64,000 nucleotides of DNA from Geosiphon pyriformis uo1 (Eukaryota > Fungi > Glomeromycota): the NCBI GenBank assembly GCA_016748015.1, contig JAAOMT010000046.1, positions 582,697 to 646,696 on the forward strand, in the 5' to 3' direction. The notes below the pieces were generated by a model, which ran no database searches, had not been told where the DNA came from, and saw only the letters and a list, made by a program, of their open reading frames with translations. Shown here in pieces: positions 12,278-47,591 of this stretch (position 1 is its first letter; the number at the start of each line of letters is the position of its first letter). The translations under genes were made by a program, and so were the position numbers.

Positions 12278-12296
12278 TTATTCTCTCCTTTTAATA

Positions 12297-12950: not shown

Positions 12951-12984
12951 ATTCTTATATATTCTTTTGTCAATCAATTGGATA

Positions 12985-14354: not shown

Positions 14355-14416
14355 CTTTTGTTATATTTTTCGTTGGTATTGTTCTGGTTTTGTTATATTT
14401 TTGGGTTGAAATATTC

Positions 14417-16251: not shown

Positions 16252-16642
16252 CTGTTGATCTAAATCCCTGTATTCCTCTCGCTGTTATTCCTAATTTCTC
16301 TCTTTTTTCCACTGATACTAACTGAGCTACTCTAACCAGAGGCAGGAATATTGTCTGTGCTATCTTTTCATTGAGCTCTATTATATAGGTCTTTTCTGAG
16401 TCATTTTGTAGCATAGCGATGATATTTTCTATATATCTCATGTCAATTATTCCTCCTCTTATATTAATTCCTCTTTTCACTAAACTACTCCTAGATGCTA
16501 ATTGAACTATTGTTGTTACTAGAATTTTTAGTGCTACTTTCAGATCAATATAGGTGTGTGAATGTGGTTCCAATTTGATGGTCTCTTTTCCTGAATACCT
16601 CAGATCAAACTTGACATCAGTATCATGTACACATTTAGGCAT
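16252..16642 (-). pseudogene. dut: dUTPase domain within family B pol
   Basis: Trimeric dUTPase motifs: P.CVHDTDVKFDL (I), ASRSSL (II), GGIIDMRYIENI (III, decayed IDAGYxG), EKIAQ (IV), RGIQGFRST (V). Confidence 0.85.
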
Positions 16643-20642: not shown

Positions 20643-20682
20643 GTTTGAATTTGTGTTGGTGTTGGTTCTCTGTAGGATTATA

Positions 20683-20699
20683 CCTCACAGGGAGCACCA
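20683..20699 (-). promoter_or_regulatory. Primer binding site TGGTGCTCCCTGTGAGG, probably for elongator tRNA-Met
   Basis: Starts with TGG 2 nt after the LTR. The complement CCTCACAGGGAGCACCA resembles 3' ends of eukaryotic elongator tRNA-Met as I recall them. Confidence 0.8.
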
Positions 20700-20701
20700 A
20701 A

Positions 20702-21612
20702 TATTACAGGTAATTCTTTGGAATGTCGAGTAAATAACAAACCCATAACTTGGTGCTCAAGACGATTGGTAATGCTGATAATCTGAAGGTTTTTTAATTG
20801 AGTTCTTTGTATAATGGACAGAGATTCAATAGTAACAGTTTATCAGTAGTTTCCTGGCACCATAGTTTTGCCAATTGTTTGCTCAGCTTGATGGTTGATA
20901 ATTTTTCTGATATGATATCTTGCATAAGTGTATACTAGTATGGTTTCCTAATGTCAGTTCCTTCATAAGTTCTCCAAGAGTAAGTGTTGTTTAAGCAAGT
21001 TTATTTCTCTGTAAGTTCTCCAAGAATAAGTATTTTTTAGTAAGCTTTATTTCTCCATAAGTTCTCCAAGAGTAAATCTTTTAATCAAGTTAGTAGACAA
21101 CAAAGAAAATAAAGAAAGATAAAAAAGAAAATAAGAAATAAGCCAAGACGATTTGCAAGTTAATATCCCATCAATAGCCATGATCAAGAGCTATTGTTCC
21201 AGTATAGTTAAGTATTAGTTACCATCAACATGAAGTGTTGATAGTGGAGAATGAATTTGATATGGTGAATAATTATTTATTTGAGAATTGTGATAACTAA
21301 GCTAAGAATTCTTGGTGTTCCTCTTTCTTTTTCTGCTTTTAATGCTACTGCTATATATACATATTTGAGATTCTTCAATTTCTCAATTCCTTGTGACAAA
21401 AATTCTGGAATTCCTGGAATCCTGCAATTCCTGGTGAGAAGAATCCTGCAATTCTGGAATCCTGCAATTCTTTGTCAGAGAATCCTGAAATTCCTGGAAT
21501 CCTGCAATTCCTCTGAGAGGAATCTTAGAATTCCACATTTACTATGTCTATATTTGATTGGCTAATATCTACTGACTAATAATACTATATTTCCTATATT
21601 CTATGAGTAACA
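20702..21612 (-). repeat. Family B 5' LTR
   Basis: TATTACAGG (decayed TG)...GAGTAACA; adjacent to the PBS. Confidence 0.95.
21405..21535. repeat. Tandem ggaatcctgcaattcct-type repeats in family B U3
   Basis: Also at 12085-12200 with fewer units and at 23260-23370. Confidence 0.75.
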
Positions 21613-23664: not shown

Positions 23665-24010
23665 TTTCTTTTGTATTGTTGTATACTAATTGATTAAAGA
23701 TTAAAGCACTGAGTTACAGATATTATAGAAACTGGTAAAATACCCATAAAACAAAAGTAGAGAACTCATAAATTTGAGAATAGCTTACCAGAAAGATTAC
23801 TGGTTACCATGCTGAGAAAAAAATTTGATGAAATTGCAATTTTAGGAGACTATTGAAACAATAATTGAATCTCTAACTATTATTCAAAAAATTTAACCAA
23901 AACCTTCAGACAATCAAAAAAACTTTCAGATCATAACTATTGTATCAGTGATTAATACCAAGTTATGGGTTTGTTATTTGATTTAAGATTCCAAATAATT
24001 ACCTGTAACA
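23182..24010 (+). mobile_element. Solo LTR related to family B
   Basis: TGTTATTCATAG...CCTGTAACA, reverse complement of the B LTR pattern. Perfect TSD atac/atac. Confidence 0.9.
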
Positions 24011-24552: not shown

Positions 24553-25291
24553 TGTTATAGTTGAAATTCATAGTTTTTATTAATTATTATATATATTAGC
24601 CACTAATATTATATAATTAGCTACTCTATTTTTAAATAGTAATTATTGATCTAATTAATAACTTAAATATTGATCTAATTATTAATTTAATCATTGATCT
24701 GAACAATAATCTAATTATTAATCTGATTATTAACTTAGTTATTAATCTGGTTATTGACTATTTTCAATAGCTATATAAATAATAAGTTTCTTAGCTGTAA
24801 AAAAATATAATCAAATATAAAAAATAAAAGAAATAAAATAACAATTATTATCTCAATTTTTTTTATATTACTTATTTCTCTTTTTTTATTTTTAAGTATT
24901 TAAATATCTTGGAATAAAAAATTATTTGTTGGTATTTTCTTACTCTTTTTCTGATTTGTATAATTGTAGTATTTGAAGATTATTGAATAAAACATGATTG
25001 AAAAATACATCTAATATCTAATATTAAATTTTAAAAGTGTTAATATAATACATAAAATTATATTAGTATATAATTATTTGTTAACAATATGAACTATTTT
25101 TCTACTTTTAGATTTTCTGATTATTTTTTAAAAAAAATAGTGATTAAAATATTTTATGAGACTAATCTTGCATATTGAATTTATACTTATTTAATTTGTT
25201 TTTTAAAATTGAATTTCTTTTAATTTATTCTATTACCATACAATCCTGTTTTTTCTTGCTATCTGTTAATTTGTTACTCTAATTTGTAACA
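24553..25291 (+). repeat. C1 5' LTR
   Basis: TGTTATAG...TGTAACA, followed by taaaag and a decayed PBS. Confidence 0.9.
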
Positions 25292-28200
25292 TAAAAGTGG
25301 TGTTTTTTGTAAAATTGTCAAAATCCACTTATTTTTTTTATTGTATGGATAATTATTTATATTTGTCACAACAATTAGAAAAACACTTTGCAATATACAA
25401 CAAAAACAACCTAAATTTTATTAAATTCAATTCTTTGCTCTTCTGCTTAATCTGTTTTCTATTGAAAAACAATTCAGTAAACAATTTCAAGATTTTTGGA
25501 ACTGATTCTTAAACAAATATTCAGCTGAAATCTATATAGTCTATACAATCTATTTTTTTGATCAAGCTTACTTTGAAAAAACTTTTGAAAAGTAAAACAA
25601 CTATATTAATTAACTTTTATATTCAACAACTTTTGACTAACAGTTTTTTGATTTCAAATATTTGAATTATCAAATCCATATCTGAATTGTTGTCTATTAA
25701 TTAATTAAAACTTTCTTTAAAACAGAAAAAAAAAATTACCAAACTGTTTTTGTTTTTGATTCTTTTTTAAATAAATTAAATCATTCTATACAAACAACTA
25801 TTTTTGAACTAATAGTTGCTAATCTTATATAAGCAAACATTTTGATTGTTTTTTAAGACATACAAACTGCTTTAAAGTGAAAAAACAACATTTTATTACC
25901 ATTATTTAGAGATAATATATAAAATTCAATTAAATAATTAAACAATTTTGAAAAAACAGCTACAGTCAACCAATATAATGCTAATTACAAATTCTAAATT
26001 GTTGATGACTATTTTCAAGGCTTTTTTGCTATTTAATTCTCACAAAAAATTGATGTTAGTGTTCTCTAAAAAAATTTTAAATAGATATTAACAAATACTA
26101 AAGAAGAAAATATCTCTTTTACTATTTAGTTTAAAAATAAATTTAAGACTTCCATTTTAATTTCCAAATAGTATATGGAATTAGAAAAAAAAATTCAAGA
26201 CTTTGATAAAGTTGTAACTAAATATGTCAAAGCAATAAAAAATTTTATCAAATAAGTAGACTCTGAAAAAAATTAAACAAAAAACAAAAGATTTATTCTT
26301 TTACAAAAGTATTGAAAACTAACTTATCTTATGTTCTTTGGTTTTTTTTGGTCCTAAAAAATAATTTCTTTACACAAATAATTAAAAACAATCAAAAAAT
26401 GCATTTAGAATTCATACTTCCAGTTTTTGTTTCTGCTTCTGTTATGGTCCCTGTTGTACAAATAGCTATTATTTTTTTTGCTCTTTAAACTTAAAATTTT
26501 AATAAACAATTAATAGATAAACTTACAGCCAATCTTGCCTGGTTATTAGAATCATTAACTTAAGCAGTTAGAAAAACTCAGCAATTTCAAAAACCTAGAT
26601 TTAAATCTTGTTTTAATTAATTTTAGTAGTCTCTTTATTAAAGACAAAAAATTATGGCCCATTTGTATATTATTACTGTAGATTAATTAAACATTTTTTA
26701 AAAGATTACAACAATTTTTTTTTGTTTTCTCCAACTTTTAAAAATAATAATAATTAAAACAACAGATCTATTAATAATAGTGTTCTTAATTAAAGACTTA
26801 ATTATATTAATATCAATTTTTTTGGAAAGAATTTTCTAGTTAAAGCCACTATTTATTAACTTTTAAACTAATAGATACATCTCTAAAAAGTAAGAGTACA
26901 AGCCAACCAGAAAAAAACTTTTTTTTTATTTTTAACTTAATTGATAATAATTATAATATAAATAAACTGGCTATCAATTCTTTTAAGTCTATAAAAAAAA
27001 AAAAAAAGCCAAAGTTGATTTTACCACAAATTTTAACAAAGTTTTAATTTTTACTATTAATAACAATAAGTCATCAAAAGCTAAAGTTTTTAAAAATTCT
27101 TTAAAGTTGAAATCTTCAGAGATAGTACAAAAATCTCATAGAAACTTTTGCATACATTATTTTTGGCCAATTAATAACCTATTTATAGTTTAAAAAAATC
27201 TTCACAAATTTCTGATTTTAAAAAAAAACACTAAAGACTAATAAATGTTCTTATTAAGCTAGACTTGTTAATAATAACAATATTATTTCTTTAATTTGCA
27301 AAGTTCAAGTGGGTGGTTATTTTATTGATTTAATTCTAAACAGTAAATAATCTGTTAGTATTATTGTTAAATACTTTTTTGAAGCAATTGACAGAAAGAT
27401 TAATAAATCTTCTACTTAACCAATAACTAATATGCATAAAAATAAAATAAAAAGTCTGAATATTATTAAAGCTGTTCTTATTTGCATTAATGACATTAGA
27501 ATTAAAACTGAAATAAAAGTATCTTAAGTTAAAAAATACACCATAATTGTTGACAATAAATAGCTTAAAAAAACCAAAGTTTTACTTAACTATAAACTGT
27601 GTAAATTAAACATCAAATATAGAAAGAAGTCTATTGTAATTAAGTACTGTTATTAAACAATTTTTTCAGTATTCAAACAAAGCTCAGAAAAAAAATAATT
27701 AAATGATAAAAAAAACAATTATGAAAAAAATAAAGAAGAACAAAAAAAAACTGCTAAACTTGTTTATATTATCTTTATCAATAATGACAAGTCATTAAAT
27801 AATATTAAAGCTAACAAAAAAAGAATTATTGTAAATAACAAACTAATTTGCTGGTTCTACTATAATATTTTTAGAAGAATTTTTAATAGAAAACTTGACA
27901 AAAAAGCCAAATATAGTTATTAATAATATGGTTCTTATACTTAATACTAGTACAATAAACTATTGTATTCTTTTAGTAATAAATACAAATTCTGCTTAAT
28001 TTATTACAAAAATTGGAAATTTATTAGCTTAATATTTAAAAAAAAATAAAAGAAGTACAAAAGTTCTTTAAAAATGAATTATTAAAGATATAGTTATTAA
28101 TAGTAAAACAAAAAAAACTCTTTTTTGAAGAAAAAAAAGTAAACATTAAAAACTTACTAATTAAGAATAGTCCAGTTATCTCAAAAAAAAGTGATATTTC

Positions 28201-29049
28201 TAGATGTATTTATATAATACAACATACTATTACCACCAGAAACTTGTTTTATTCATTTAAAATCTTATTAATCTAATTGTCATAATAATAATTTCATCAA
28301 GAAAGAAATAAACTGAATAAAAAACCTTGAATTTATACAAAAAACCAAGAGTAAATAAGCATTTTCAGTTGTAGTAATATTTACGAAAAGTAAAATTCTA
28401 CATTTCTGTATTAACTATTGCCAATTAAATATTATTAAAAGAGATATATACTTATTTCTCAAATTAATGCAATACTAAATCAATTTAATAGTGCTGCTTT
28501 TTTTTCAATTATTGATTTAACTATTGAATTTTAACAAGTAAAAATGGATCCAGAAAGCAGAAAAAAAAACCACTTTTATTACCAAATACAGCATATATAA
28601 ATTTACAGTTATGCTTTTTGGTCTTACCAATATTTTTCTTATTTTTAACACTTAATAAATAAAATATTTAAATCAGTAAAAAAACTTTGTTTTGGTCTAT
28701 TTGAATGACATAATAATATACACAAAAACCTAAGATGAACATATTAAACATTTATAAAAAGTTTTTAATCTTTTTAGAAATATTGGTCTTAAAATTAATT
28801 TAATCAAATTTTTTTTAAATAACAATTTACTTAATTTTTTGGTCATTTTATCACAAAAGATAGAATCTTCTCTGATTTAGCCAAGATTGAAAAAATCCAA
28901 AATATTAAATAATCAATAAACATTCATAAATTATGTTTTTTTTTGATTTGGTATTTTATTATTGAAAATTTATCAAAAATTTCTCCAAAATTACTTTTTC
29001 TCTTAATTAGCTACTTAAAAAAACTGTTAATTATTACTGAAATATACAT

Positions 29050-30019
29050 TGTTATCAGTAGAATTTTAGCTATTAATTAGCATGAAATTATTCTCATAAT
29101 TCTTATTAATAATTAGCATATATTATTATCATTTTGATTATCACTTATTATTTAATCAAATTATCAAATATCATCATTCAATTAATAATCCGATTTGTAT
29201 TATAGAAATTAAGATAATCAAATTACACAATACTCTGAACCATTTAAAATAGTCAAAATTCGTCGAAATTGATAAAAATTGGCCGAAATAATCAATAGTT
29301 TGTAGAAATAACTTGTAGTTTACTGAAATGTATTTTTAATTTACTGAAATTAGAGAAAAGAGAAAAATGCAAGTTTAAAGACTAGTACTACAACAAGTTG
29401 TATAAAAAAAGAGCTCCTCTTTTTAAGAAAATGTATTTTCTCATAGTATCTTATCATAGTATGTTACTTTAAATATCAATTAGAACAAATTACCTTTTAC
29501 ATATCTCAAATAAAAATTGAATATTTAAAAACCAAATTCTTTGATTATTATACTTGAAATTTTTTCAACACAACTAACATTTTGAAATTAATTAGCTACC
29601 AATTTCAGTAATCTGTTAATAACTCCAGGCCTGGATAAAAAAACGTTTTTCTTGACACAATTCTATTTCTTTCACATTTTTTTTTTTTTCTTTTTTTTTT
29701 CTTATCATAATTATTAAGGTAGCCAACAAATAAGATTCTTGTAGAAGAGTTGACTTTTATAACAAAGTAATTACACATTTTAATAAGCTTTCAGATAAGC
29801 ATTCTTGAAAAAAAGTTGATATTTACTACAATATAACTATACAAAGTAATTGGTACAGAATTGGCCATTTTACTTATAAGCATAACAGTTCAAATTATAG
29901 AAGATAATTTGAAGATAAATTCAGTTATTGGAGGTTCAACTGCTTCCAAAAAACGTGAAAATAGCAACAAACAAACATTAACAATATTCAAGAAAAGAGA
30001 CCAAAAACCTCCAGTAACA
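29050..30019 (+). mobile_element. Solo LTR of family A inside C1 pol (RT/RH linker)
   Basis: TGTTATCAG...CCAGTAACA, TSD acat/acat. The flanks rejoin to match C2 at ~35660-35680. Confidence 0.93.
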
Positions 30020-31231
30020 ACATTAGCAAAAAATTGTTGAAACTCTAAAGAAAAACTAGTCATTAAACCAATTCTTATGTAATCTAATCTAAATTAATCT
30101 TTTATTTTTTATATTGATATATTTGGCTTTAGACTTAGTGTTATTTTTTTTCAGAAAGATTAAAATAACAAAGAGCATATTATAACTTATGTCAGCTAAT
30201 TACTTTCTTTAGCAGAACAAAACTACTTAATTATTGAACAGAAATGTTTAGCAGTAATATGAACTACTAGTTATTAAAATAAATATCTTCTTGATACCAA
30301 ATTTCTGGTGATAACAGATTATTAAGTCTTGGTTTAGCTGTAAAAAAAAAAAGCTGAAACATAAATGAATAATTTGCTGGATACTTTACTTAGATAAATT
30401 TAACTATAATATACAATATTACAAAGAAGCTTATAATCAAAATATTAATATTTTTTTTAGACTTATTATCTAGTAATAATACAATCTTCTTAAACCAAAT
30501 CAACTTAATTATTAATAACTTCTTCTTAAAATAAACATGATAATAAACTTGGACAACTATTTTGTCTTAATAAAATTTTTGGATAAAGAACAATATTCAT
30601 CAAAATATACTTAACAGCAAAAAAAATATTTGCAAAAACAATTAAATTTCTATTTGATTTGTCAAAACCAATTATAAAATAAAAATAAAAAAAACACTAA
30701 TTGTTCTTAAAGAGTCATTAGATTTAAAAAATAAAAAATTGTAATTTACAATATATATACTAATTTATTAGCTAAACATTTTGAAAAGACTAAAATAATT
30801 CAAAAAATACTTGCTTATTATTATTAATTTATCTTAGAAAAAACATTGCTGAATATATTAAAATCTGTAATATCTGCCAAAAAAAAAAAACTCAATCACA
30901 AAAAAAATATTTATTTAATTTTTGTTGGGTAACTATTTAACAAAATTGGTATAAATATTGTTAAACCTTTAATTATAATTCCTAATAGCAATAAATACAT
31001 TATCACAACTATTAACTATCTTATAAAATAAGTAGAAACAAGAGTTATTTCAGATTAAACAGCAGTTTTTATTGTTAACTTTATTTATAAAGACATTATT
31101 TGTCATTATAACTATTGTTATAGGTAAACTGGTAGAGTATTGTTATGGTTGAAACCCATAATTTTTATTAGTTATCACATGTATTAGCCACTGATGTCAT
31201 ATAATTAACCATTCTATTTTTAGATAGTAAT

Positions 31232-31312
31232 CATTGATCTGATCAATGACCTGACCGTTGACCTGATCATTGACCTAATCATTGACCTAGTTGTTGACCT
31301 GGTCATTGACCA
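31232..31312 (+). repeat. 12-bp tandem repeat (ttgacctgatca-like) in family C U3
   Basis: About 6-7 units here. Copy number differs at 24645-24760, 38243-38285 and 56641-56695. Confidence 0.8.
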
Positions 31313-31883
31313 CTTTCATTAGCTATATAAGTAATGAGTCTCTTAGCTGTAGAAAATCATCTCTCAGACAAGAATTAAATAAATAAAAATAACAACTTTC
31401 ATCTCAATTACTCTCTTATCACTAATTTCCCTTTCTCTATCTTCAAGTATCTGAACATTTTAGGATAAAAGATTACTTGTTGGCCTTTTTCTGTTTGAAT
31501 AATTATAGTATTTGAAGACTATTTGTATAAACATGACTGAAGAGCACAAGTTGATACCTGATATTGAATTCTAAGAGTGTTAATGTGAAGGCATAGAATT
31601 AATACTAGTGGTGATCAATTGTTGATAGTACAGACTATCCCTCTACCTTCAGATTCTCTTGTTACTTTTTGAAAAGAATAGCGACTGAGATATTTTATGA
31701 AACTGATCTCGCACATTAAATCCATACTCATTCAATTCACTCATTGAAGTTGAATTCCCTTTGATTATTTCCATTACCCTACAATCCTGTTCTCCCTTGC
31801 TATCCGTTAACTTGTTACTTCAACCCGTAGCATAAAAGTGATGCTCTCTGTGAGGTTGTCAAAATCCATTTGTTTCTTTATTG

Positions 31884-33444
31884 TATGGGTGATTATTCAT
31901 ACCTACCACAACAATCAGCAGAACACTTTGAAGCACACAACAGAAATGATTTAGACTTTATTGAACTCAATCCTTTGCCATCCTGCTTAAATTGCTTCCC
32001 CCTTGAAGAACAATCCAGTAGACAATTCCAAAACTTTTGGAACTGGTTCCTGAATGAGCATTCAGCTGAAACCTACACAGTCTACACAATCTATTACTTT
32101 GACCAAGCTTACTTTGAAAACAACTTTGAAGAAAGAAACAACAATATCAATCAGCTCTTATACTTAGCAACCTTTGAACAACAACCTCCTGAATTCGAAT
32201 ATCTAAATTACCAAATTCACATCTGAATTGCTGCCCATCAATCAGCTGAAACCCTTTTTGAAACAGAAAAAGAAAGTTACCAAACCACTCCTATTTTTGA
32301 TTTCTTCTCAAATGATTCAGATCATTCCACTCAAACAGTAACTTTTGAACCAATGGCCCAAAATCCAATGCAAGCAAACATCCTAGCCACCCTCCAAGGC
32401 ATACAAACTGCTTTGGGGTAAAGAAACAACACTTTATTACCATTATTCAAAAGTGATACACAAGATTCAATTGAATGATTGGACAATTTTGAAAGAACAG
32501 CCACTGCCAACCAATATGATGATGAGTACAAGTTCCAAATCATTGGTGGCTACCTTCAAGACTCTTCTGCCATATGGTTTTCACAAGAAACCAATACCAA
32601 TGTCCAACACAGAATTATCAGATGGACACCAGCAGATGCAGGAGAAAACAATACCTTTTTCACTATCTGGTTTGAAAACAAGTTCAGAACCCCAATCTTA
32701 ATATCTAAATGGCACATAGAACTGGAAAAAAGAACCCAAGATCCTGGTGAAGTTGTAACTGAATATGCTAAAGCAATCAGAAAGTTAATCAAGTAAGTAG
32801 ACTCTGGAAGGAACTGAACAGAAGAACAAAAGATTCACTCCTTTACAAAAGGATTGAGAACTGACTTATCTTATGCTCTTTGGCCTCTTTTGGCTCTAAA
32901 AGACAACTCTACAATGGATATGGCTATTGAACTTGCCCAAAGAATTGAAAATAACCAAAGGATGCATCTGGAATCCACACTTCCAGTTTTTGCTTCTGCT
33001 CCTGTCATGGCCCCTGCTCCTCAAGTAGCTGCTACTTCTTTTGCTGCCCAAACCCAAGACCCAAATGAACAATTGATAGATAGACTCACAGCTAACTTTG
33101 CCCGGTTATTAGAACCATTGGCACAAGCAGTTAGAGATAACCAGCAACCACCAAGACTTAGATATGAATCTTGTTTTAACCAGTCCCAGCAACCTCCCTA
33201 TCAAAGACAGCAAAATCGTGGCCCATCTGTGTGCTATTGTTGTGGATTAACTGGACATTATTTAAGAGATTGTAACAATCCTCCACTGCCTCCTCCAGCT
33301 CCCAGAAACAATAACAACCAAAACAACAGACCCAACAACAACAACAACAATATCCTCAATCAAAGACTCAATCATGCCAACATCAATTTCTTTGAAGAGG
33401 ATCCCCTAGTTGAAGCCACTGTTTATTAGCCTTTAAACTGGTAG
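31884..33444 (+). pseudogene. C2 gag
   Basis: Capsid-like region (ORFs 32479-32796 and 32854-33429) and zinc knuckle CYCCGLTGHYLRDC. Natural stop TAG at 33442-33444. Confidence 0.88.
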
Positions 33445-33480
33445 GTGCATCTCCAAAGGGTAAGAGTACAAGCCAACCAG
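33432..33480 (+). promoter_or_regulatory. Putative -1 ribosomal frameshift signal (T TTA AAC plus downstream stem-loop)
   Basis: Heptamer is in gag phase, two codons before the gag stop. The -1 frame is the pol frame. Conserved in C1 and C3. Confidence 0.75.
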
Positions 33481-36122
33481 AAGAAAACCCTTTTTACATT
33501 TTTAACTTAACTGATGATAACCATGACATGGATGAACTAGCAATCAACACCTCAGAACCAACCAGAAAGAAGAAGAAAGCCAAAGTTAATTTCGTTCTAG
33601 ACACCAACAAAGCCTCAACTTCTGCTGCTGATAACAATGAGCCACCAAAGGCTAAAGTTTTTAAGAATCCTCCAAAGTTGAAACCCCCAGAAATTGTACA
33701 AAAATCTGGATCCTATTTTGTTGTCAAAGATTTCATGGAAACCCCAGCACATATTACCTTTGGCCAGTTAATGACCCATCTACAGTTCAGAAAGGATCTT
33801 CACAAATTCTTGATTCCAAAGAAGAAGACACCAAAAACCAACAAGCACCCTTGCCAAGCTGGACTTGCTGACAACAGCAATTTCACCCCTCTGATTTGTA
33901 AAGCCCAAGTGGCTGAATACTTTATTGACTTAATTCTGGACAGTAGATCATCTGTTAGTGTCATTGCCAAACACTTCTTGAAAGCAATTGGTAAAAAGAT
34001 TGATGAACCTTTCACCAGACCAATAACCAATGTACATGGTAACAAAAAGAAAGGACTGGATATTGCCAAAGCTGTTCCTGCCCGCATCAATGGAATTAGC
34101 ATTGAAACTGACATAGAAGTTTCTGAAGCCAAGAAATACACCATCATTGTTGGCAATGAATGGCTCAAGAAAGCAAAAGCTTTGCTTGATTATGAACTTT
34201 GTAAATTAACCATCAGATGTGGTGAGAAACCCATTGTGGTTAAGTGTCACCATTGGACAACTTCTCCAGTACCCAAACAAAACCAAGAAGAAGAACAATC
34301 AGATGAATCAGATAATAAAGAGAGTGATGAAAAAAAAGAACAAGAAGAGCAAGAAGAAACTGCTGAACTCGCCTATATCACCTTTACCAGCAATGGCAAA
34401 CCACTGGACAATGTTAAAGCAGACAAAGAAGAAATTATTGTAAATGGCAAGCTGATCTGCTGGTCTTATTATGATATTCTTAGAAGAACCTTTAAAAGAA
34501 AACCTGGCAAGAAAGCCAAATACAGTTTTTGGTGACATGGTCCTTGTGCCTGGTGTTAGTGCAACAAACCCTTGTATTCTCCAAGCGATGAATGCAAATC
34601 ATGCCTGATCTATTACAGAGATTGGGAACCAATTAGTTTGATACCCAGAGAAGAATTGAAAGAAGTACAGAAGTCTTTTGAGAATAAACCACCTGAGATC
34701 CAATTACTAATTGTAGAACAAAAAGAACCCTCCCCAGAAGAAAAAAAAATAGACATTGAAAATTTGCTGGCTAAAAATAGCCCAGTTATCTTCAAAGAAA
34801 GTAATATCCCTAGATGTACCCATGTAATACAACACACCATCACCACCAGAGAAACTTGACCCATCTATTTGAAGTCTTATCAATCTAATCGGTGCAATGA
34901 TGAGTTTATCAAGAAAGAGATAAACCAGATGAAAGAACTTGGATTCATACAAGAAACCAAGAGTGAATGGGCTTTTCCAGTTGTAGTGGTATCCAAGAAA
35001 GATGGAACACTATGCTTCTGTGTCGACTACCACCAATTAAATGCCATTACTGAAAGAGACATGTACCCACTTCCCAAGATTAATACAATGTTAGATTAAT
35101 TCAAAGATGCTGCTTTCTTCTTAACCATTGACTTAACTGCTGGATTCTGGCAAGTAGAAATGGATCCAAAAAGCAAAAAGAAAACTGCCTTCATTACCAA
35201 GTATGGTATCTATGAATTCACAGTCATGTCTTTTGGTCTCACCAACGCCCCTTCCACCTTTCAATGCTTAATGGATAAAGTATTTGAATCAGTCAAGGAA
35301 AACTTTGTTCTAGTCTATTTGGATGACATAATGATATACTCAAAAATCTGGGATGAACACCTGGAACATTTGCAAAAGGTTTTTGACCTCCTTAGAAATG
35401 CTGGCCTCAAGATCAACCCAATCAAATCTTTCTTTGGAAGACAATCCATCCAGTTCCTTGGTCATCTTATCACAAAAGATAGAATCTTTCCTGACCCAGC
35501 CAAAGTTGAAAAAGTCCAAAACATTAAACAACCAATGAACATTCATGAACTATGCTCTTTTCTTGGTTTGGCCTCTTATTATCGCAAATTTGTCAAGGAT
35601 TTCTCCAAAATCACCTCTTCTCTCAATCAGCTACTCAGGAAAAATGTCAATTACTATTGGGGAACACATTAGCAAAAAGTCTTTGAAACTTTAAAGGAAA
35701 AACTGGTTACAGAACCCATCCTCAAGCAACCTGATTTAGATCAACTCTTTATCCTTCACACTAATGCATCTGGCTTTGGACTTGGTGCTGTTCTCTCCCA
35801 GAAAGATGAAGATGGCAAAGAACATGTCATAGCCTATGCCAGTAGAACTTTTTCCCCAGCAGAACAGAACTATTCAGTTACTGAACAAGAATGTTTAGCA
35901 GTAGTATGGTCTACCAGTTACTGGAGTAAGTATCTTCTTGGTGTGAAGTTTTTGGTAGTAACAGATCACCAAGCTTTGGTTTGGCTGCACAACAAAAAGA
36001 GGCTAGAACACAAATGGATAACTCACTGAATACTCCACTTGGATGAATTAGACTATAATATTCAACATCACAAAGGAGCTAATCATCAAAACGCTGATGC
36101 TTTTTCTAGACTTATTATCTAG
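33432..36122 (+). pseudogene. C2 pol: protease, acidic and Cys-rich spacer, RT, RNase H (no dUTPase)
   Basis: LILDSRSSVSVI, FCVDYHQLN, YLDD, FLGLASYYRKF, TNASG, TDHQAL; ends NADAFSRLII**. Confidence 0.92.
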
Positions 36123-36186
36123 TAACAGAACAACTCTCTCAAACCAAACCAACTTAATTATTAGTAATTTCCCCTTTTTGACAAAC

Positions 36187-37423
36187 ATGATAATGGACTT
36201 GGACAACTACTCTGTCTTAATGGAATTTTTGGGTAAAGAACAATACCCACTGAAATACACATGACAACAAAGAGAACATTTGTGCAAACAATCAAATTTC
36301 TATTTGATTTGCCAGAACCAACTTTATAAAAGAAATAGAAAAGATTCTGACCGCCTCCAGAGAGTCATCAAATTTGAAGAAAGAGAAATTGTGATCTACA
36401 ATATGTACACTGATCCATTAGCTGGACACTTTGGAAAAACAAAAACAATTCAGAAAACTCTAGCTTACTATTATTGGCCTACCTTGGAAAAAGACATTAC
36501 TGGATACATCAAAACCTGTAATATCTGCCAAAAAAAATATTCATCCAATCTTTGTTGGTCAACCCTTTGACAGAATTGGTATAGATGTTGTTGGACCTTT
36601 AACAATAACTCCTAATGGCAACAGATACATTATCACAGCTACCAACTATCTTACAAAGTGGGTAGAAGCAAGAGCCACTCCAGACTAAACAGCAGTCTCA
36701 ATAGCCAATTTCATTTATGAAGATATCATTTGTTGCCATGGCTGCCCCAAAAAATTTTTATCTGACAGAGGAAGAGCTTTTCTTAGTACACTTGTTGAAA
36801 AACTTTGCAGAAAAATGGGAATACATCACAAACTTTTCTCTTCTTATCACTCCCAAACAAATGGCCTAGTGGAACATTTTAATAGAACACTATGTGAAAC
36901 CCTAGCCAAAACCAGCAAAGAAACAAACTTATGGAACAAAGTACTGTCTTCAGCTTTGTTTGCTTATAGAACTGTGAATTATGACATAACAAGTTATGAA
37001 TCCTTTTATCTACTCTATGGACGAATAGCAACCCTACCAATAGAAACTGACATTGAAACAATACCCTTTAAAGAAATAACAATAGGGAATTACAAAGACA
37101 TTTTGCAAAGAAGACTTGATACCATTCTTGACTCATTAGTAGAAGCATGGATAATTGCCTTTGAAAAGATAAAACAATTCCAAGAGAAGCTTAAGAAAAA
37201 AAAAACATATAAAACACCTTCCTTAAGTGTTGGTGACTTAGTTTTAGAATACCGTTCAGACAGAGACAATGTCTATAGTGATAAATTCTCTAGCTGGTGG
37301 AAAGGACCCTTTATAGTCAACAAAGTTTTGAACAATGGTTCTTATATTTTATAAGATTAATATGGAACAATCTTCAATGATTACTCTGTTCATGACACAC
37401 GATTCAAGAAATATCACAAATGA
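36187..37423 (+). pseudogene. C2 integrase, stand-alone ORF
   Basis: ATG at 36187/36193, DPLAGHFG..CNICQ, GIDVVGPL, QTNGLVE, WKGPF tail. Confidence 0.88.
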
Positions 37424-37428
37424 CTTGA

Positions 37429-38181
37429 TTGGTTATCTGTTGTGGTAATACTGACCTAAATGATCAACAAAAATCAGATATAAATAAATGTACCATTCCC
37501 AAAACAAAGATATCTTCAATTGACATGAACAATTATTTCCTAAATCAAAACATTCAAAATGCTTTCTACACTCTCCATAAGTACTGGATCAAAAATTATC
37601 CAAATGCTACTTTGACCATTGGAAAACAAACCACCATAACTGATAACAGTAGAACACATACTGTTATTAGACCAAAAAAAACCACTACCAGAAGAGAAAG
37701 AATTGGTAGCAAAATGGATAAGTATTTGCTGGAAAGCATAACAGCAGCAATACTTATACCTTCCATAACAATTGAAAAAACGATTAAGAAAATCTTGCCC
37801 ATAGACAAAAACTTGTCATATAGAAAACAACTAGAACTCTATAGTCATTTTGGTGAAATCATAGAAGAAATGAAGCTCATAAAGAAAACAACTTCAGAGA
37901 TACAAGTGGAAATTTTAAGCATTATATGTTTAGATGTTCCAAGAGTTTTGATCATTGCAAGAAGAGCCAAAACTCTTATACAAAGATTTGGTCTCTTGGA
38001 TACAAAGCTTATTTCATCTCAAGTACTATACACTCTATCCACAAAAGACTTCAACAAACTAGTTAGTTTTGAGTTAGACAAAACTCTTCAATTAGAATAC
38101 CCTATAAATAGCTTGATTTCGCCAGAGCTTAATCTCTTTGAAGAGGATGATGTTATGGTTGAAACCCATAATTTTTATTAG
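37429..38181 (+). CDS. C2 ORF3, unknown function; reads through the PPT into the 3' LTR
   Basis: 250-codon uninterrupted frame (first ATG at 37525). Degenerate copy in C1 at ~55860-56580. Confidence 0.7.
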   Translation: MVICCGNTDLNDQQKSDINKCTIPKTKISSIDMNNYFLNQNIQNAFYTLHKYWIKNYPNATLTIGKQTTITDNSRTHTVIRPKKTTTRRERIGSKMDKYLLESITAAILIPSITIEKTIKKILPIDKNLSYRKQLELYSHFGEIIEEMKLIKKTTSEIQVEILSIICLDVPRVLIIARRAKTLIQRFGLLDTKLISSQVLYTLSTKDFNKLVSFELDKTLQLEYPINSLISPELNLFEEDDVMVETHNFY

Positions 38182-39396
38182 TTATCACATGTATTAGCCA
38201 CTGATGTTATATAATTAGTCACTCTATTTTTAGATAGTAATCATTGACCTGATCAATAACCTGACTGTTGACCTGGTCATTGATTACTTTCATTAGCTAT
38301 ATAAGTGATGAGTTTCTTAGCTGTAGAAAATCATCTCTCAGACAAGAATCAAATAAATAAAAATAACAACTTTCAATCACTCTCTTATTGCTAATTTCCT
38401 TTTCCTTACCTTCAAGTATCTAAACATCTTAGGATAAAAGATTACTTGTTGGCTTTTTCCTATTTGAATAATTATAGTATTTAAAGACTATTTGTATAAA
38501 CATGACTGAAAAGCACAAGTTGATACCTGATATTGAATTCTAAGAGTGCTGATGTAAAGGCATAGAATTAATACCAGCAGTGATCAATTTTTGACAGTAC
38601 AGACTATCCCTTTACTTTCAGATTCTCTTGTTACCTTTTGAAAAGAATAGCAACTAAGATATTTTATGAGATTGATTTCACACATTGAATCCATACTTAT
38701 TCAATTCACTTATTGAAGTTAAATCTCCTTTGATTATTTCCATCACTCTACAATCTTGTTCTTTCTTGCTATCCATTAGCTTATTATTCCAACCTGTAAT
38801 AGTATAGTGGTAATGTTTGGTGCTCTAGCTTTAGGTTATCTTTTAAAATTGTCTGCTTTTTCTGCCATGTCAGTGTTATCAGTCTCTAAAGATCTATTTC
38901 TGGCTGTGAATTTATCCATTGAGTTCTTTGGTTATAAGGCACAGAGTTTGTCTTTCAATGTTTTCTGTAAATGTGAACTTTCTTCTCTGCACTAACAAGC
39001 ATAGTTGTTAGGGTCTGGCATTGTTTTTTTGCCCTTCTAATAAGCTACCAAGATAATATTAATATCCAAAACTTAAGGGAAGCTTCCTTTTTTTACCAGA
39101 CTATCACAAAGTCTATTCCAAGACAATCAATTTTTCTATATTGCCAATGACATCTGTCCCAGAACAAAAATAGGAAATACTGATTTTAATTTCAGTTAAA
39201 ATCTGTAAGATTGGAGAACATGAATTGGTGAATTGGATTTGGTTTTGATAATTTATTGTATTTCAGACTATGGATATATGATAAGTATATTACAAAGTAA
39301 AATTTATTCTTAACTAACTGTCTGACTTTTCAATTTCTACAACTACTTGCTTTTATATATTCTTTTGGTTTTACAAAATTGCTTTTAATTGCTTCA

Positions 39397-39483
39397 TTAT
39401 TGCTAGCTATTGCTCATTATTGCTAACTATTGCTTATTATTGCTAGCTATTACTTGTGTTTATTAGCTATTGCTTGTGTTTGC
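39397..39483. repeat. Tandem tattgctagctattgct-type repeats in family D U3
   Basis: Also at ~48315-48390. Confidence 0.7.
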
Positions 39484-39590
39484 TCTGTGTTATCTCGAGT
39501 TGTACCTTATTTTTCTTGTTATGTTTCTTTGTTACATTTTTTCATAGCTTTTTGGTTTTTTTCTACTTGGATAACATTATCTCTTCCTTT

Positions 39591-40253
39591 TTAAAATTGA
39601 GCTTCTGTGAAATCATCTATTTTAGCTAAGTTTGTGTTTTCTGTAAAGAACTCGAATGTTGCCTTTAGTATTGTTTTTTGTAGAACTTCAAATTGGGTGT
39701 TTGTCATCCATCCTATGTTGTTGACTGTGATAGTTTTCAGAGTTTTGTCTAGTAGTACCATTGGACAGTGTTTAAATGCTGAATATAGTCAGTATGTTGC
39801 TTTGTAGTATAAGTTTAAGTTGTTTCTTCCCACAAATTCTTTTACTTGTCTGTGAGCTTCTTTGTTGATTGTTCAACAGTTAAGATCTTCATATGGGCTA
39901 TCTAATCCTAATTATAATCCAATTTTAAATAGCCAATAGACAAGTGAAAGTTTTTTTTTTCATTTTTTTGCATTTTCAGGTGTTCATTCTTTTGTTACCA
40001 GCTCTGCTGTTTGCCTATTCAGACTCTCTCTTATTTTCTCAATTCTTACCCAATACAGTTTTATTTCTGTCATCTTTCCCTTCTCCTTAGCTGTGTCAGG
40101 TCCTATCTTTGCCATATCCCTTTTTCTTTTTCTTTCATAAGAATAGATTTGCTTGTAAGGATGGGACAGCTTAGTTCTAATTAAACTCTTGTCCATCTCT
40201 TTCTTGCTCCTATTCCTGTATCATATCTTTTTTTTATCAATTGTGATTTCTAT
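39591..40253 (-). pseudogene. Family D ORF3 remnant
   Basis: RQVKEFVGRNNL..KATY*LYSAF..P..LL....TIT.N....MTNTQFEVLQ aligns with B ORF3 RQLKQFVGKNNL..QAIYWLYMGF..P..LL....TVTSN....MTNAQFKELQ. Confidence 0.75.
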
Positions 40254-40399
40254 TTAAGCAGAAGATTGTTGAATTGCATCAAACAGTTGTTTCAAAAGTT
40301 GTAGAATTTAATCTGAAAGATTTATGTTAAAAAAGATTCTATCATTTTTTTGTTGTTTTCTGGGTGGTATATATATTTGAATTTTCCAATTTAATTTGC

Positions 40400-41777
40400 T
40401 ACATGTTGTCTATATTTTGATAATGATGATTGGTTCCAAATCTTGTGGTATATCTTCTGGTCTAATTAATAGAATTTGTGTTCCTAGTTGATGTACTGAT
40501 GACAATGACTGTTGTTTCACATGATAAATTTTTAATTGATTTCCATAAGCTACTTTCTTTAAAATTCTGTTTTCCAATTATAATTTGTAAGCTCTATTTC
40601 CTAAAGCTTTGTGTATATAGAATGGGCCATCCCACTTTGGGTTGAACTTTCTGTTTCATTGTTTTTCTGCTTTTGTACAATATAATAGTACTTGGTCTCC
40701 AATCTTAAATTTCATTGGTTGTTCAAGTAGGCAATTATCATGTCTTTTTTTTTTGTCGTTCTTGAGTATTACTAATATTGTCAGCTGCTATTCTATGATT
40801 GTTTTCTAATGTTTCCATTAGCTAATATATTTTTTGGTATAAGATATCTTCAAAATTTTTTTCGTTGATAATTTCTGTTGAGTAGGACATTATTTCTTGT
40901 TTAATAAATAACATTGCTTTTCTTCTATAGACTAATTCGAATAGTGTAAACTGTGTTGTATTTTGCTTTAATGTTTGATATGCAAAGAGTACTAAAGGTA
41001 TAAATAAGTCCTATTTTTGTTTATTTTTGTAACTTATTTTTGCTAATGCTTCACATAATGTCCTGTTAAACCATTCTACCAGTTCATTTGTTTGTAGGTG
41101 ATATGGTGATAATAGAAGTTGTTTTATACCAAAATGTTGATTTAATTCAGTTAACATAGTATTGACAAAATGTGTTCCTTGGTCCAACAACAGTTCTTTT
41201 GAGCATCTATATCTGTATATTAGATCTTGGTGTATGAATTTGGCTACTGTTTTGGCGTTAGCTACTTGGATTGCTCTGGTTTCTGGCCATTTTGTAAGAT
41301 AGTCTATGGTTACTACTATATAACAATTTTCTTTGGATGTAATTGAGAGAGGACCAACCAAATCAATCCCAATTCTATCAAATGGATTTCCAACTGGAAT
41401 GGGTCAAAGTGGTTCTGTTATTTTGGCTCCTCCCTTTTGCTGGCATGAGTCACAATTAAGAACATATTCGAAGATATCCTTATACATTGTAGACCAATAG
41501 TATAGATTTGTTGTTCTTTCCAAAGTTATGTCTTTGTTGAAGTGTCCTGTAGTTGGATCGGAATGCATACTATATAATATAGCTTCTTTTTCACTGTCCT
41601 TGATCAATTGTTGTGGGGTGGTGTGGTTTTGTTGTTCTCAATAATAGAGTTGGCTATTTTAAATAAAGTAATTTTGTGTTTGTTCCATATGGTATTTTGT
41701 TTCTGTTAAGATAATATCTCTTTGAAATATAGTGTCAATAGATACTGATGTAATTGCTAATAAGTAAGTATATCCAT
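40400..41777 (-). pseudogene. Family D integrase, stand-alone ORF (3' end approximate)
   Basis: Own ATG (MDILTY), HSDPTTGHF..CDSCQ zinc motif, GIDLVGPL..IDYLTKWPE core, KWDGPFY tail. Confidence 0.88.
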
Positions 41778-41787
41778 GGGTTTGAGA

Positions 41788-43060
41788 TTAGGTTTGTGGT
41801 ATCCCCAACAAACTGTTGGCATTGGTGTTCTTGAATTCTTTCTTGTAGTAAATCTTGAGTGGGAATTGTTGTAGATAAGTACTCCATCTTACATATTTTC
41901 CTTTCAACTATGGGTTATTGAGTAACCAGATGAGTCTCTTATGATCAGTATATAGGTCAAATGGTTGCCTGAGGTAGTGTTTCCATGTTTGTATGGCCCA
42001 ATAAATAGCAAGGGATTTTAAATCTGTTGTGCTATATATTTTTTCTGCTAAGCTGGTACTGCGACTGGTGTAAGCAATTGAATGTTCTCTTCTGTCTGGT
42101 CTTATTTGTAATAATACAGTTTCTAGTGCATTTTTTGATGTATCTGTAGTAACAATGAATCATTTGGTGAAGTTAGGATAAATCAGTATTGGAGATGTAA
42201 TTAATTGCTGTTTAAGATAGTTGAAGACTTTTTGTTGCCCTTCCTTTTACAAATATGGTATGTATTTTGATAACAAGTGATGAAGGGGTTTTGTGATAGT
42301 TAAGAATTCTTTGACAAATTGGCAGTAGTATCTAGCCAGTCTTAAAAATCTTTATAGCTCTCATAGGTTGATTGGGACTGGAAAATTCTTGACCTTTTGG
42401 ATTTTGTTTAGGTCAGATTTTACTCTGTCTTTGCCGATCACATGTTCTAAGAATTTCAGTTTGGTTTTTCTAAAGAAGCATTTATCAGGATTGAGTTTTA
42501 ATCCAGCATCTCAAAGGTGTTCGAAGATTTGTTACAAGTAGAGCAAATGTTTGTCGAATGTTTCTGAGAAGACATTGGTATCGTCTAAGTATACTATGAC
42601 TGATTTTCATAAGATGTTGAAATGTAGCAGGAGTATTGCACAGTCTAAAAGGCATTACATTGAATTCAAAATTTCTGTCTCAGGTAGTGAATGCCATTTT
42701 CTCTTTATCTTTCAGGTTCATTTCGACTTGTTAATATCTACTGGCCAGATCTAGGAATAAAAACCATTTCTTTTTTTCTAAGTTGTCTAGGATTTCTTAG
42801 ATAAGAGGAGTGGAATAGCTATCTCCTCAGGTAACACTATTTAATTTTCAGTATTCATGCAGAATCATACCTTTCCATTTTTCTTGGTAACTAAGACTAC
42901 TGGAGAGAACCAAAGGCTTAATGATTCTTTAATCAGTCTATTGTCAAGCATTCGTTGTACTTCCTGCTTAATCAGATTATTTCCAGATGGAAGTACTCAA
43001 TAAGCTTGCTGCTTAATAGGTCAAGCATCTCTGGTGTCAATCTGGTGTTTCACAATGTTA
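41788..43060 (-). pseudogene. Family D reverse transcriptase and RNase H
   Basis: VYLDDTNVFS, FLEHVI, TDTSK, YTDHK; ends NANSLLGIPQT*. Contains a frameshift/deletion. Confidence 0.85.
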
Positions 43061-43580
43061 GTGCACTCAAACTCATTTTTGCTGGCAAAAACATCGGCAT
43101 ATTGGTTCAATAGAATCTTAAGTTGCATTTGCTGTAAAGTGTTTAGGTTTTCCAAATTGAGTTTATTGATTTCTTTTGGTGTGAACAAGTAACTTTTTTT
43201 TTGGCAGGTTCTATACTTGTGAGGTAATGTCACAGAACAAGAACAATTGAGTGAAATCTGGAATGAGCTGAGGTTTTTCTGGATTTTGAATATTTGAAGA
43301 TATGGAACTAATGAGAGTTCTCTCAGGAATTTTGATAATGTCTTCAGTCAGATTGTAGATGAGAATTTTAAAGTGTTTATGAGCTTTGGCTGGTAAATAC
43401 AGGTTAGCAATATTGGCTAATAAACAGATCTTAGAATTGGTCTCAAAGACTAGTGCTTGGTTCTAAATTTTTGAGAATATACTGCTGATAAAAAGGGATG
43501 GAAATGATGGTATCAGTATAGATAAGTTCTACCTGGTTACTATCCTTCTCTGTAAAATTGACTGTTATGTTTCCTTTTTT

Positions 43581-43972
43581 ACTTGAGCCAAACCCCTTGA
43601 TTCCTCAGACAGTAAGACCTAATTCTTCTCAGATGATAACCAGAGCTAGTTGGGATATTTTGACTAAAGGTAGAAAGATGGCTTGGACAATTTTTTCATG
43701 AGATTCAATCTTGTAGAGTTTGTTTGAATTGTTTTGTAGTATCACGATAATGTTTCCCATATATTTAGCATTGATAATTTTTCCTTTTACATTGATTCCT
43801 TTCTTTGTAAGGCTCAATCTAAATGCTACTTGTATCATAGTGCTAATAGGAATTTCTAGCACTATTTTGAGATCTATTTTTACCAGAGAATATGAGGCTA
43901 TAATTATGGGTAATTGTCTAGGGTATCTTAATTCAAAATCTACATTGGTTTCATGTGCTTTTTCTGGGCATA
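43581..43972 (-). pseudogene. dut: dUTPase domain within family D pol
   Basis: PEKAHETNVDFELRY...GINVKGKIINAKYMGNI...EKIVQ...*GIKGFGSS. Confidence 0.8.
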
Positions 43973-47574: not shown

Positions 47575-47591
47575 CCTCACAGGAAGCACCA
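47575..47591 (-). promoter_or_regulatory. Family D primer binding site TGGTGCTTCCTGTGAGG
   Basis: 2 nt from the LTR; one mismatch to the family B PBS. Confidence 0.8.

What the first reader, a model, noticed from the sequence alone, without database searches (positions are those of the whole stretch)
31645..31855. U5 boxes complementary to the anticodon arm of elongator tRNA-Met, conserved across otherwise dissimilar LTRs
Known (from memory): eukaryotic elongator tRNA-Met has the arm TCAGTCTCATAATCTGAAGGT. Seen on each element's sense strand, 75-190 nt upstream of the LTR end: family C has ACCTTCAGAT (31645-54) and TTATGAGACTGA (intact at 57090-57101, decayed at 31695-706), the two halves of that arm's complement separated by a spacer. 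Both boxes persist in C3 LTRs (~49561 and ~49599; ~55292 and ~55330) although the spacer sequence differs. Family B has the complement of ATAATCTGAAGGT (20778-90, duplicated at 11444-71 and 23902-30). Family D has the complement of (T/C)AGTCTC-TGAAGGT (47693-707). Inference: a multipartite primer-template interaction, analogous to the Ty1 boxes, the Ty3 bipartite PBS or the HIV A-loop, that unfolds or anchors the tRNA or aids strand transfer.
Basis: partly seen in the sequence, partly recalled or inferred. Interest (0 to 1): 0.8.

Follow-up and report, generated by a model that had tools for sequence, protein, structure and literature searches.

The report
Retrotransposon LTRs grip primer tRNA's anticodon
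Three families of decayed jumping genes in a fungus share one primer-binding site and carry, just upstream of it, short stretches complementary to the anticodon arm of a methionine tRNA, which likely let them hold their tRNA primer at several points at once, as HIV does.

Summary
The window is a nest of dead Ty3/gypsy elements from a Geosiphon pyriformis-like fungus. Families B, C and D share one 18-nt primer-binding site (PBS); the window's only 5 PBS-compatible 18-mers all follow 5' LTRs. Their LTR 3' ends carry sense-strand boxes complementary to the anticodon arm of a tRNA-Met(CAU): nt 47-37 plus 38-27 in 6 of 6 C LTRs, 47-35 in B, 47-39 plus 34-27 in D. C and B beat shuffles, decoy arms and the antisense strand; D alone does not. 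C LTRs cannot be aligned to B/D, but B and D are sister families. Added here: B/D LTRs carry a block complementary to T-arm nt 56-50 (like HIV's primer activation signal) and a U5 hairpin over the PBS. Best reading (0.7): a multipoint primer-template contact that selects and unzips elongator tRNA-Met at initiation of reverse transcription, like HIV's A-loop, C-rich and PAS contacts. Not shown: the host tRNA was not seen, so that PBS and boxes bind the same tRNA is inferred; no function was tested. New variant of a known mechanism; interest 0.5.

The parts
31141..31832 (+). 5' LTR of element C2 (C2 spans 31141-38801, 4-bp target duplication, inserted in the U5 end of D's 3' LTR)
31645..31655 (+). 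C box 1, complement of tRNA-Met nt 47-37 (variable loop and 3' anticodon-stem strand); same box at 25104-14, 38614-24, 49561-71, 55292-302, 57040-50
   Evidence: 0 transversion/indel columns
31656..31694 (+). Spacer between C boxes; predicted weak hairpin in C1/C2, 11 nt shorter and without the 5' arm in C3
   Evidence: 83% cells paired, 54/500 shuffles as high: inconclusive
31695..31706 (+). C box 2, complement of tRNA-Met nt 38-27 (anticodon loop and 5' stem strand); one decayed base at 31701; same box at 25154-65, 38664-75, 49599-610, 55330-41, intact at 57090-101
   Evidence: at 31701 about 88% of contig depth in run X1 reads the complementary base
31839..31856 (+). PBS of C2 (2 decay differences from B's); C1 25298-315, C3 49744-61
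20682..20699 (-). PBS of element B, intact 18-mer TGGTGCTCCCTGTGAGGT, 2 nt after the LTR end
20778..20790 (-). B box, complement of tRNA-Met nt 47-35; also 11444-56 with a second 47-38 copy at 11462-71
20799..20805 (-). PAS-like block, complement of T-arm nt 56-50 as implied by the PBS; also 11480-86, 3520-26, 47734-40, 38920-26
   Evidence: lies in the longest transversion/indel-free block of the six B/D LTRs
20750..20759 (-). Anti-PBS: U5 copy of the tRNA 3'-end sequence, 5' arm of a predicted 18-bp hairpin over the LTR end and first 8-9 PBS nt; in D at 47631-40
   Evidence: 3/300 shuffles in B, 15/300 in D
3496..3512 (-). Solo LTR B3: complement of nt 47-31 with 3 decay differences and one G opposite U39; second 47-39 copy at 3487-95
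23902..23931 (+). Solo LTR B2: two copies of the core box (47-39 and 47-38)
47693..47707 (-). D box: complement of nt 47-39 and 34-27, skipping most of the anticodon loop; also 38879-93
   Evidence: not significant alone
47574..47591 (-). PBS of element D (1 decay difference)
11368..21612 (-). Element B: Ty3/gypsy, gag-PR-dUTPase-RT-IN, inserted in a LINE
24553..57205 (+). Element C1, outer member of the nest (holds solo LTR A, D, C2 and C3)
   Evidence: target duplication ATAT
31116..48484 (-). Element D: Ty3/gypsy with dUTPase, sister family of B

Best explanation
The LTR 3' ends of these Ty3/gypsy elements carry boxes complementary to a tRNA-Met anticodon arm next to a shared primer-binding site, and the boxes likely form a second, extended contact with the primer, probably elongator tRNA-Met, at the start of reverse transcription. 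Shown: boxes, strand, position, shared PBS, conservation in C. Inferred: (1) the tRNA 3' end anneals to the 18-nt PBS, in B and D displacing the U5 anti-PBS hairpin; (2) this frees T-arm nt 50-56, which pair with the PAS-like block in B/D; (3) the weak 4-bp anticodon stem is invaded from nt 47 by the core box that all families share, and family-specific extensions take the loop and the 5' stem strand; (4) up to about 38-40 tRNA bases would then be paired, selecting and holding this tRNA in the particle and setting the timing of initiation, until reverse transcriptase copies through U5 and strips the contacts off.
For: Only 5 PBS-compatible 18-mers in the window, all directly after the 5' LTRs of C1, C2, C3, D, B, in families whose decayed RTs are 44-51% identical between C and B/D. 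Boxes are on the sense strand, in the last 300 nt, above shuffles and decoy arms in C and B. C boxes: 0 of 23 columns with a transversion or indel against 89 of 310 in the rest of U5 (Fisher p about 0.001). The core begins at nt 47 in all three families although C and B/D LTRs do not align. The 56-50 block follows from the PBS itself (T-stem complement plus the universal T-loop bases, established knowledge), stands in 5 of 6 B/D LTRs in tRNA-colinear order, with 15-26/5000 chance for an exact hit in a 40-nt window. Predicted binding of the arm to real 5' LTR-PBS RNA is -8 to -15 kcal/mol, better than 60 of 60 shuffles in four elements and 59 of 60 in D; the free anticodon stem-loop is only -1.3. 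One tRNA-Met gene joins the arm to the T-stem that the PBS implies. Precedent: HIV-1 forced to use tRNA-Met keeps it stably only with U5 made complementary to its anticodon (PMC1797187, passages); HIV U5 C-rich region pairs with variable loop and anticodon stem, A-loop with the anticodon loop (PMC13191261, passages); PAS pairs with nt 48-55 (PMC3675109, passages).
Against: The host tRNA-Met was not seen. No retrieved tRNA has both arm and PBS complement: exact search of genome contigs 0 hits; among 80 distinct viral tRNA genes the nearest 3' ends to the PBS were phage Met(CAT) (22 genes, 1-2 mismatches in 15 nt, different arm), one Lys(CTT) (1) and Ile(TAT) (5 genes, 2-3); six arm-bearing Met genes were 7-10 off. 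D alone and solo LTRs B2/B3 are not significant. Columns are not independent; 70 of 322 11-column windows are equally clean, and the clean run around box 1 extends 13 nt upstream with no tRNA match. Box conservation against flanks could not be shown by column counts in B/D (box duplicated and misaligned). C has no convincing PAS-like block or anti-PBS. The boxes lie 75-190 nt from the PBS, further than HIV's contacts. The R/U5 border is inferred from TATA-like and AATAAA-like motifs only. All copies are dead (LTR pairs differ by about 9%, nearly all transitions). No relative in another species was recovered.
Confidence: 0.7

Rival explanations
1. The boxes bind tRNA-Met but act outside initiation: recruiting and packaging the tRNA, or bridging two RNA molecules, as proposed for Drosophila gypsy's second tRNA site, which is dispensable for cDNA synthesis.
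For: Drosophila gypsy has a second 11-nt site complementary to parts of the anticodon and T stems that binds the primer but is not needed for cDNA synthesis (PMC1635307, sections 19 and 22). The core box is duplicated in 3 of 4 B-type LTRs, as a multivalent capture site might be.
Against: Gypsy's second site is at the RNA 3' end; here the boxes sit just upstream of the PBS in tRNA-colinear order with a T-arm block that is accessible only after PBS annealing.
Confidence: 0.12
2. The boxes are relics of captured tRNA sequence (an antisense tRNA gene with its intron, or read-through of the primer by reverse transcriptase), carried along without function.
For: The C split falls at nt 37/38, the canonical tRNA intron position (recalled), and RT is known to run past m1A58 and stop at the modified A37 of HIV's primer (PMC13191261 figure legend). 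A tRNA-gene-like sequence in HIV-1 U3-R is reported (title seen in a reference list only).
Against: C flanks show no match to tRNA nt 48-72 or the 5' part; B and B3 pair continuously across 37/38 and D splits elsewhere; the same arm is kept in LTRs that otherwise do not align; C boxes lack transversions and indels. Capture may be the origin, but retention needs a function.
Confidence: 0.08
3. The PBS belongs to another tRNA (Ile-UAU or a Lys type), and the Met boxes bind a second tRNA or its fragments, or are a protein-binding motif that resembles the arm by chance.
For: Ile(TAT) and Lys(CTT) genes from viral contigs have 3' ends 1-3 mismatches from the PBS; tRNA-Ile PBSs occur in Candida elements (PMC4139406, passages).
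Against: Every exact 15-17-nt PBS match to a tRNA was a Met(CAT) gene (3 of 3 loci; one search's 17 loci are the same phage gene type); a 21-nt two-part match including the anticodon in C is far beyond 45 decoy arms; eukaryotic elongator tRNA-Met 3' ends resemble this PBS (recalled, no call).
Confidence: 0.1

Closest known systems
HIV-1 extended primer-template complex (A-rich loop, C-rich region, primer activation signal in U5)
   Same: U5 sequences upstream of an 18-nt PBS complementary to the anticodon loop, to the variable loop plus 3' anticodon stem, and to the T-arm 5' strand of the primer (PMC13191261, PMC3675109; passages). HIV forced onto tRNA-Met needs U5-anticodon complementarity (PMC1797187).
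   Different: LTR retrotransposon, not retrovirus; natural tRNA-Met; longer uninterrupted matches (11-13 nt, 21 nt in two parts); 75-190 nt from the PBS; three different split geometries; none tested.
Drosophila gypsy second tRNA-Lys2 binding site
   Same: [quoted passage not shown]
   Different: That site is near the RNA 3' end and dispensable for cDNA synthesis; here the boxes lie in the LTR 3' part just upstream of a full-length PBS.
Ty1 boxes 0/1/2.1 and Ty3 bipartite PBS
   Same: Multipartite pairing of a methionine tRNA primer with retrotransposon RNA (PMC5371799, PMC3592414; passages).
   Different: They use initiator tRNA-Met; Ty1 has a 10-nt PBS; Ty3's extra contacts go to T and D arms and lie in U3; Ty1's lie downstream of the PBS. 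Here the PBS is 18 nt and the target is the anticodon arm of a probable elongator.
Half-tRNA priming (copia, Ty5)
   Same: Involves the anticodon region of a methionine tRNA (PMC5371799).
   Different: Those PBSs match an internal tRNA stretch; this PBS begins with TGG and matches a CCA 3' end.

Membership tests
Metaviridae (Ty3/gypsy LTR retrotransposons) | Two LTRs with TG...CA ends and a short target-site duplication | tested here: met
   B, C1, C2, D: 4-bp duplications, two of them with one decay difference
Metaviridae (Ty3/gypsy LTR retrotransposons) | pol order PR-RT-RH-IN | tested here: met
   C2: RVP_2, RVT_1, RT_RNaseH, Integrase_H2C2, rve in that order; B and D gag-PR-dUTPase-RT-IN by tblastn
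Metaviridae (Ty3/gypsy LTR retrotransposons) | 18-nt PBS after the 5' LTR and a PPT before the 3' LTR (PMC7879559, whole text) | tested here: met
Extended primer-template complex (HIV A-loop/C-rich/PAS type) | Sense-strand sequence upstream of the PBS complementary to tRNA outside its 3' 18 nt, above chance | tested here: met
   C and B met, D alone not
Extended primer-template complex (HIV A-loop/C-rich/PAS type) | The extra site and the PBS match the same host tRNA | tested here: inconclusive
   host tRNA not seen; T-arm block fits the PBS-implied stem; no tRNA with both found
Extended primer-template complex (HIV A-loop/C-rich/PAS type) | Site more conserved than its flanks | tested here: inconclusive
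   met in C (0/23 against 89/310 columns) and for the PAS-like block in B/D, not shown for the B/D anticodon box
Extended primer-template complex (HIV A-loop/C-rich/PAS type) | Site lies in U5 of the genomic RNA | not testable with these tools
   inferred from TATA-like (about 31323) and AATAAA-like (about 31378) motifs upstream of the boxes; no transcript ends available
Extended primer-template complex (HIV A-loop/C-rich/PAS type) | Pairing shown by probing and needed for efficient initiation | not testable with these tools
   only predicted energies
Ty3/gypsy-type 5'-3' bipartite PBS | Second site at the RNA 3' end (U3 or before it) | tested here: not met
   all 7 core matches are in the LTR 3' part, none in internal regions; matches in the rest of each LTR are 5-7 nt, at background
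Half-tRNA priming (copia/Ty5) | PBS complementary to an internal tRNA stretch instead of the CCA end | tested here: not met
   PBS starts with TGG and equals the complement of real tRNA 3' ends
LTR with a captured tRNA gene | Recognisable tRNA gene beyond the anticodon arm | tested here: not met
   ARAGORN 0 genes, Rfam 0 matches at gathering score, no colinear flanking match

The most novel reading that the evidence does not exclude
Two unalignable LTR lineages independently acquired antisense copies of the elongator tRNA-Met anticodon arm, by capture of primer read-through that stops at the modified base 37, and use them with the PBS and a PAS-like block to unzip nearly the whole tRNA from nt 76 to 27: a natural primer-specificity lock that let fungal retrotransposons switch to an elongator tRNA and expand, the natural counterpart of the engineered HIV tRNA-Met switch.
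Probability: 0.2. Interest if true: 0.75.

Novelty: new variant of a known kind. Interest (0 to 1): 0.5.

Why it matters
Whether U5 contacts with the primer's anticodon arm and T arm are a general rule or quirks of some HIV isolates is still argued, mostly on short 6-8-nt matches. Here evolution offers long, unambiguous matches in three geometries (continuous, split at 37/38, loop skipped) on one tRNA, in a high-copy fungal Ty3/gypsy group, giving ready-made natural variants for annealing and probing experiments and a PAS-like element outside retroviruses. It would also be a natural case of priming by an elongator tRNA-Met; none was seen in the listings of the searches, which cover open-access text only.

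Tried and rejected
No host genome is held. Related elements with DNA: none in viral contigs with the single RT, 2 with the alignment, 69 eukaryotic contaminants in genome contigs; of the 41 loci of 4 kb or more among these 71, none had a PBS within 4 mismatches and none had a box inside an identified LTR: a weak negative control only. No RNA holder listed. The read pile-up on the C LTR showed 40 of 205 variant rows, so it could not rank conservation. Consensus fold of the C box region was negligible; spacer hairpin inconclusive; fold of C2 U5-PBS no better than shuffles. A PAS-like or anti-PBS element in C was looked for and not supported. Solo LTR family A has no significant box (22/300, antisense higher). 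Self-priming of the Tf1 type was set aside because the PBS is a tRNA 3'-end complement. Two papers could not be opened, so the HIV U3 tRNA-like element is cited by title only. Earlier-findings look-ups returned nothing.

Full report
Setting. The 64-kb window holds a LINE, a nest of LTR elements and a BEACH/kinase/WD40 host gene whose best named relatives are Gigaspora and Dentiscutata proteins at 32-36%. All 120 listed of 185 homologues of the C2 gag-protease region are Geosiphon pyriformis proteins, so the host is most likely that fungus, 41.2% of whose genome is LTR sequence (PMC11952901, passages; 'PBS', 'primer binding' and 'tRNA' do not occur in that paper's main text). No host genome was held. 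Self-alignment, Pfam and target duplications give: B (11368-21612, minus), C1 (24553-57205) containing solo LTR A, D (31116-48484, minus) with C2 (31141-38801) inside D's 3' LTR, and C3 (about 49246-55468) with LTRs that lack their upstream part; solo LTRs B2 and B3 lie outside. All are Ty3/gypsy by domain order; B and D carry a dUTPase and are sister families (integrase 62%); C's RT is 44-51% identical to theirs. Paired LTRs differ by about 9%, almost only by transitions (74 to 3, 60 to 1, 64 to 1), so C>T/G>A decay must be allowed for. The C LTR is very high-copy (10,276 contigs laid from run X1).

Observation. The recalled arm is a real tRNA-Met(CAT) arm (7 of 9 loci called by ARAGORN). In tRNA numbering all 6 of 6 C LTRs carry nt 47-37 followed, after a 28-39-nt spacer, by 38-27, together the whole 21-nt arm, with only decay-type differences. 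At the one decayed base of box 2 in C2 about 88% of contig depth in X1 reads the complementary base, as do the contigs of X2 and X3 that cover it (X1 may be the window's own source). B has 47-35, B3 has 47-31 with one G opposite U39, B2 and the B 3' LTR have the core twice, D has 47-39 and 34-27. The core always starts at nt 47.

Chance. Longest exact complement in the last 300 nt is 9-13 nt in 9 of 12 B/C/D LTRs against 5-7 on the antisense strand and in the rest of the LTR. A two-box score beats 300 of 300 shuffles and 45 of 45 decoy arms in each C LTR and 299-300 of 300 in B, but not in B2 (17/300), B3 (122/300; the score ignores wobble), D (15/300, 37/300) or A (22/300). Among C LTRs the boxes have 0 of 23 columns with a transversion or indel against 89 of 310 elsewhere (p about 0.001, columns not independent; 70 of 322 11-column windows are as clean; the boxes lie in the second and fourth longest clean runs after the LTR terminus). 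C LTRs do not align with B or D; B and D align weakly. The evidence therefore rests on about two independent lineages.

The PBS. Exactly 5 decay-compatible copies of one 18-mer exist on both strands, each 2 or 6 nt after a 5' LTR. It starts with TGG and is the complement of a tRNA 3' end: 3 of 3 exact 17-nt hits in viral contigs are tRNA-Met(CAT) genes, though of a phage lineage with another arm. A relaxed search gave 63 loci: 46 Met(CAT), 5 Ile(TAT), 2 Lys, 1 other, 9 uncalled, none with the boxes; nearest 3' ends were Met 1-2, Lys 1 and Ile 2-3 mismatches in 15 nt. One tRNA-Met gene joins the arm to the T-stem the PBS implies. That eukaryotic elongator tRNA-Met 3' ends resemble this PBS is my recall, from no call. 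The host tRNA was not seen, so that PBS and boxes bind one tRNA is inferred (about 0.9).

Two additions. First, the PBS fixes the tRNA's T-stem, so the complement of nt 56-50 can be predicted without the host gene. That 7-mer stands 6-26 nt upstream of the core box in 5 of 6 B/D LTRs (0-1 decay; B2 shows a more decayed form), in the order the tRNA requires, inside the longest transversion- and indel-free block of the six-LTR alignment (13 columns, next 6), with 15-26/5000 chance for an exact hit in a 40-nt window. This is the position of HIV's anti-PAS (nt 48-55; PMC3675109, passages). It could also pair partly with the PBS itself. Second, B and D carry a U5 copy of the tRNA's last bases that folds over the LTR end and the first 8-9 PBS bases (3/300 and 15/300 shuffles); in the four B-type LTRs this arm is the longest clean block (26 columns). 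Neither element is supported in C.

Mechanism. The free anticodon stem-loop is weak (4 bp, -1.3 kcal/mol) and is predicted to bind real U5-PBS RNAs at -8 to -15 kcal/mol, better than 60 of 60 shuffles in four of five elements and 59 of 60 in D. The likely course is PBS annealing, release of the T arm to the PAS-like block (B/D), and invasion of the anticodon stem from nt 47, so that up to about 38-40 tRNA bases are paired; this would select the primer and pace initiation until reverse transcriptase copies through U5. In B/D the unpaired boxes could act as a toehold for opening the anti-PBS hairpin. All of this is inference; confidence 0.7. Rivals: packaging or bridging role (0.12), other primer tRNA or chance motif (0.10), functionless captured tRNA (0.08).

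Comparison. It works like HIV-1's U5 contacts: C-rich region to variable loop and anticodon stem, A-loop to anticodon loop, PAS to T arm (PMC13191261, passages), and HIV keeps a tRNA-Met PBS only when U5 matches the anticodon (PMC1797187, passages). Drosophila gypsy has an anticodon/T-stem site, but at the 3' end and dispensable for cDNA synthesis (PMC1635307, abstract and sections 19, 22). Ty1 and Ty3 use initiator tRNA-Met with other contacts (PMC5371799, PMC3592414, passages). It is not a 5'-3' bipartite PBS, not half-tRNA priming and not a captured tRNA gene by the tests listed. Searches listed no paper on these boxes or on elongator-Met priming in fungal elements; only listings were seen for most hits, and subscription journals and bioRxiv supplements are not covered.

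Limits. No relative in another species was recovered, no RNA data, no host tRNA. Verdict: real and well above chance in two lineages; a new variant of a known kind of primer-template interaction; interest 0.5.

Noticed in passing
window 48760-48868 (minus strand): About 100 nt of a C-type LTR 3' end sits inverted inside a C-type integrase gene, joined at one side through a short match to the integrase coding sequence and ending in the LTR terminus at the other: looks like a one-ended or auto-integration product.
   Followed up: partly
window 49246-49737 and 55012-55468: Both C3 LTRs lack the upstream (promoter) part, each follows internal C-type sequence at a different point, and the 3' one is flanked by a 100-nt direct duplication (54909-55009 and 55474-55574); possibly aberrant strand transfers.
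   Followed up: no
window 31116-31140 and 38802-39576; 3404-4187: C2 inserted 25 nt from the end of D's 3' LTR and B3 near the end of solo LTR A1: two insertions close to U5 ends in one window.
   Followed up: no
window 29889-29899 and the matching part of A1: Solo LTR family A has a decay-tolerant match to nt 44-34, 120 nt from its end; not significant and its PBS is unknown, but it could be a fourth family with a box.
   Followed up: partly
window 15611-16666 and 42958-43994 (minus): B and D carry a dUTPase between protease and RT; metagenomic RT relatives also have it.
   Followed up: no
window 37429-38178: A 250-aa open frame after the C integrase runs into the 3' LTR, is kept in C1 (about 65-70%) and has no Pfam match.
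   Followed up: no
window LTR pairs of B, C2, D: Decay is almost all C>T/G>A with CpA the commonest context, then CpT and CpC, a RIP-like or broad methylation pattern.
   Followed up: no
window 31270 (run X3, record 15): A contig of the run guessed to be RNA begins here behind a short G-rich loose end that may be a cDNA adapter (my recall), upstream of the TATA-like box; contigs cannot show starts, so only a hint.
   Followed up: no
L220-L288: 69 loci in prokaryote genome records encode Ty3/gypsy RT relatives, several with two near-identical LTRs: eukaryotic contamination of these assemblies.
   Followed up: partly
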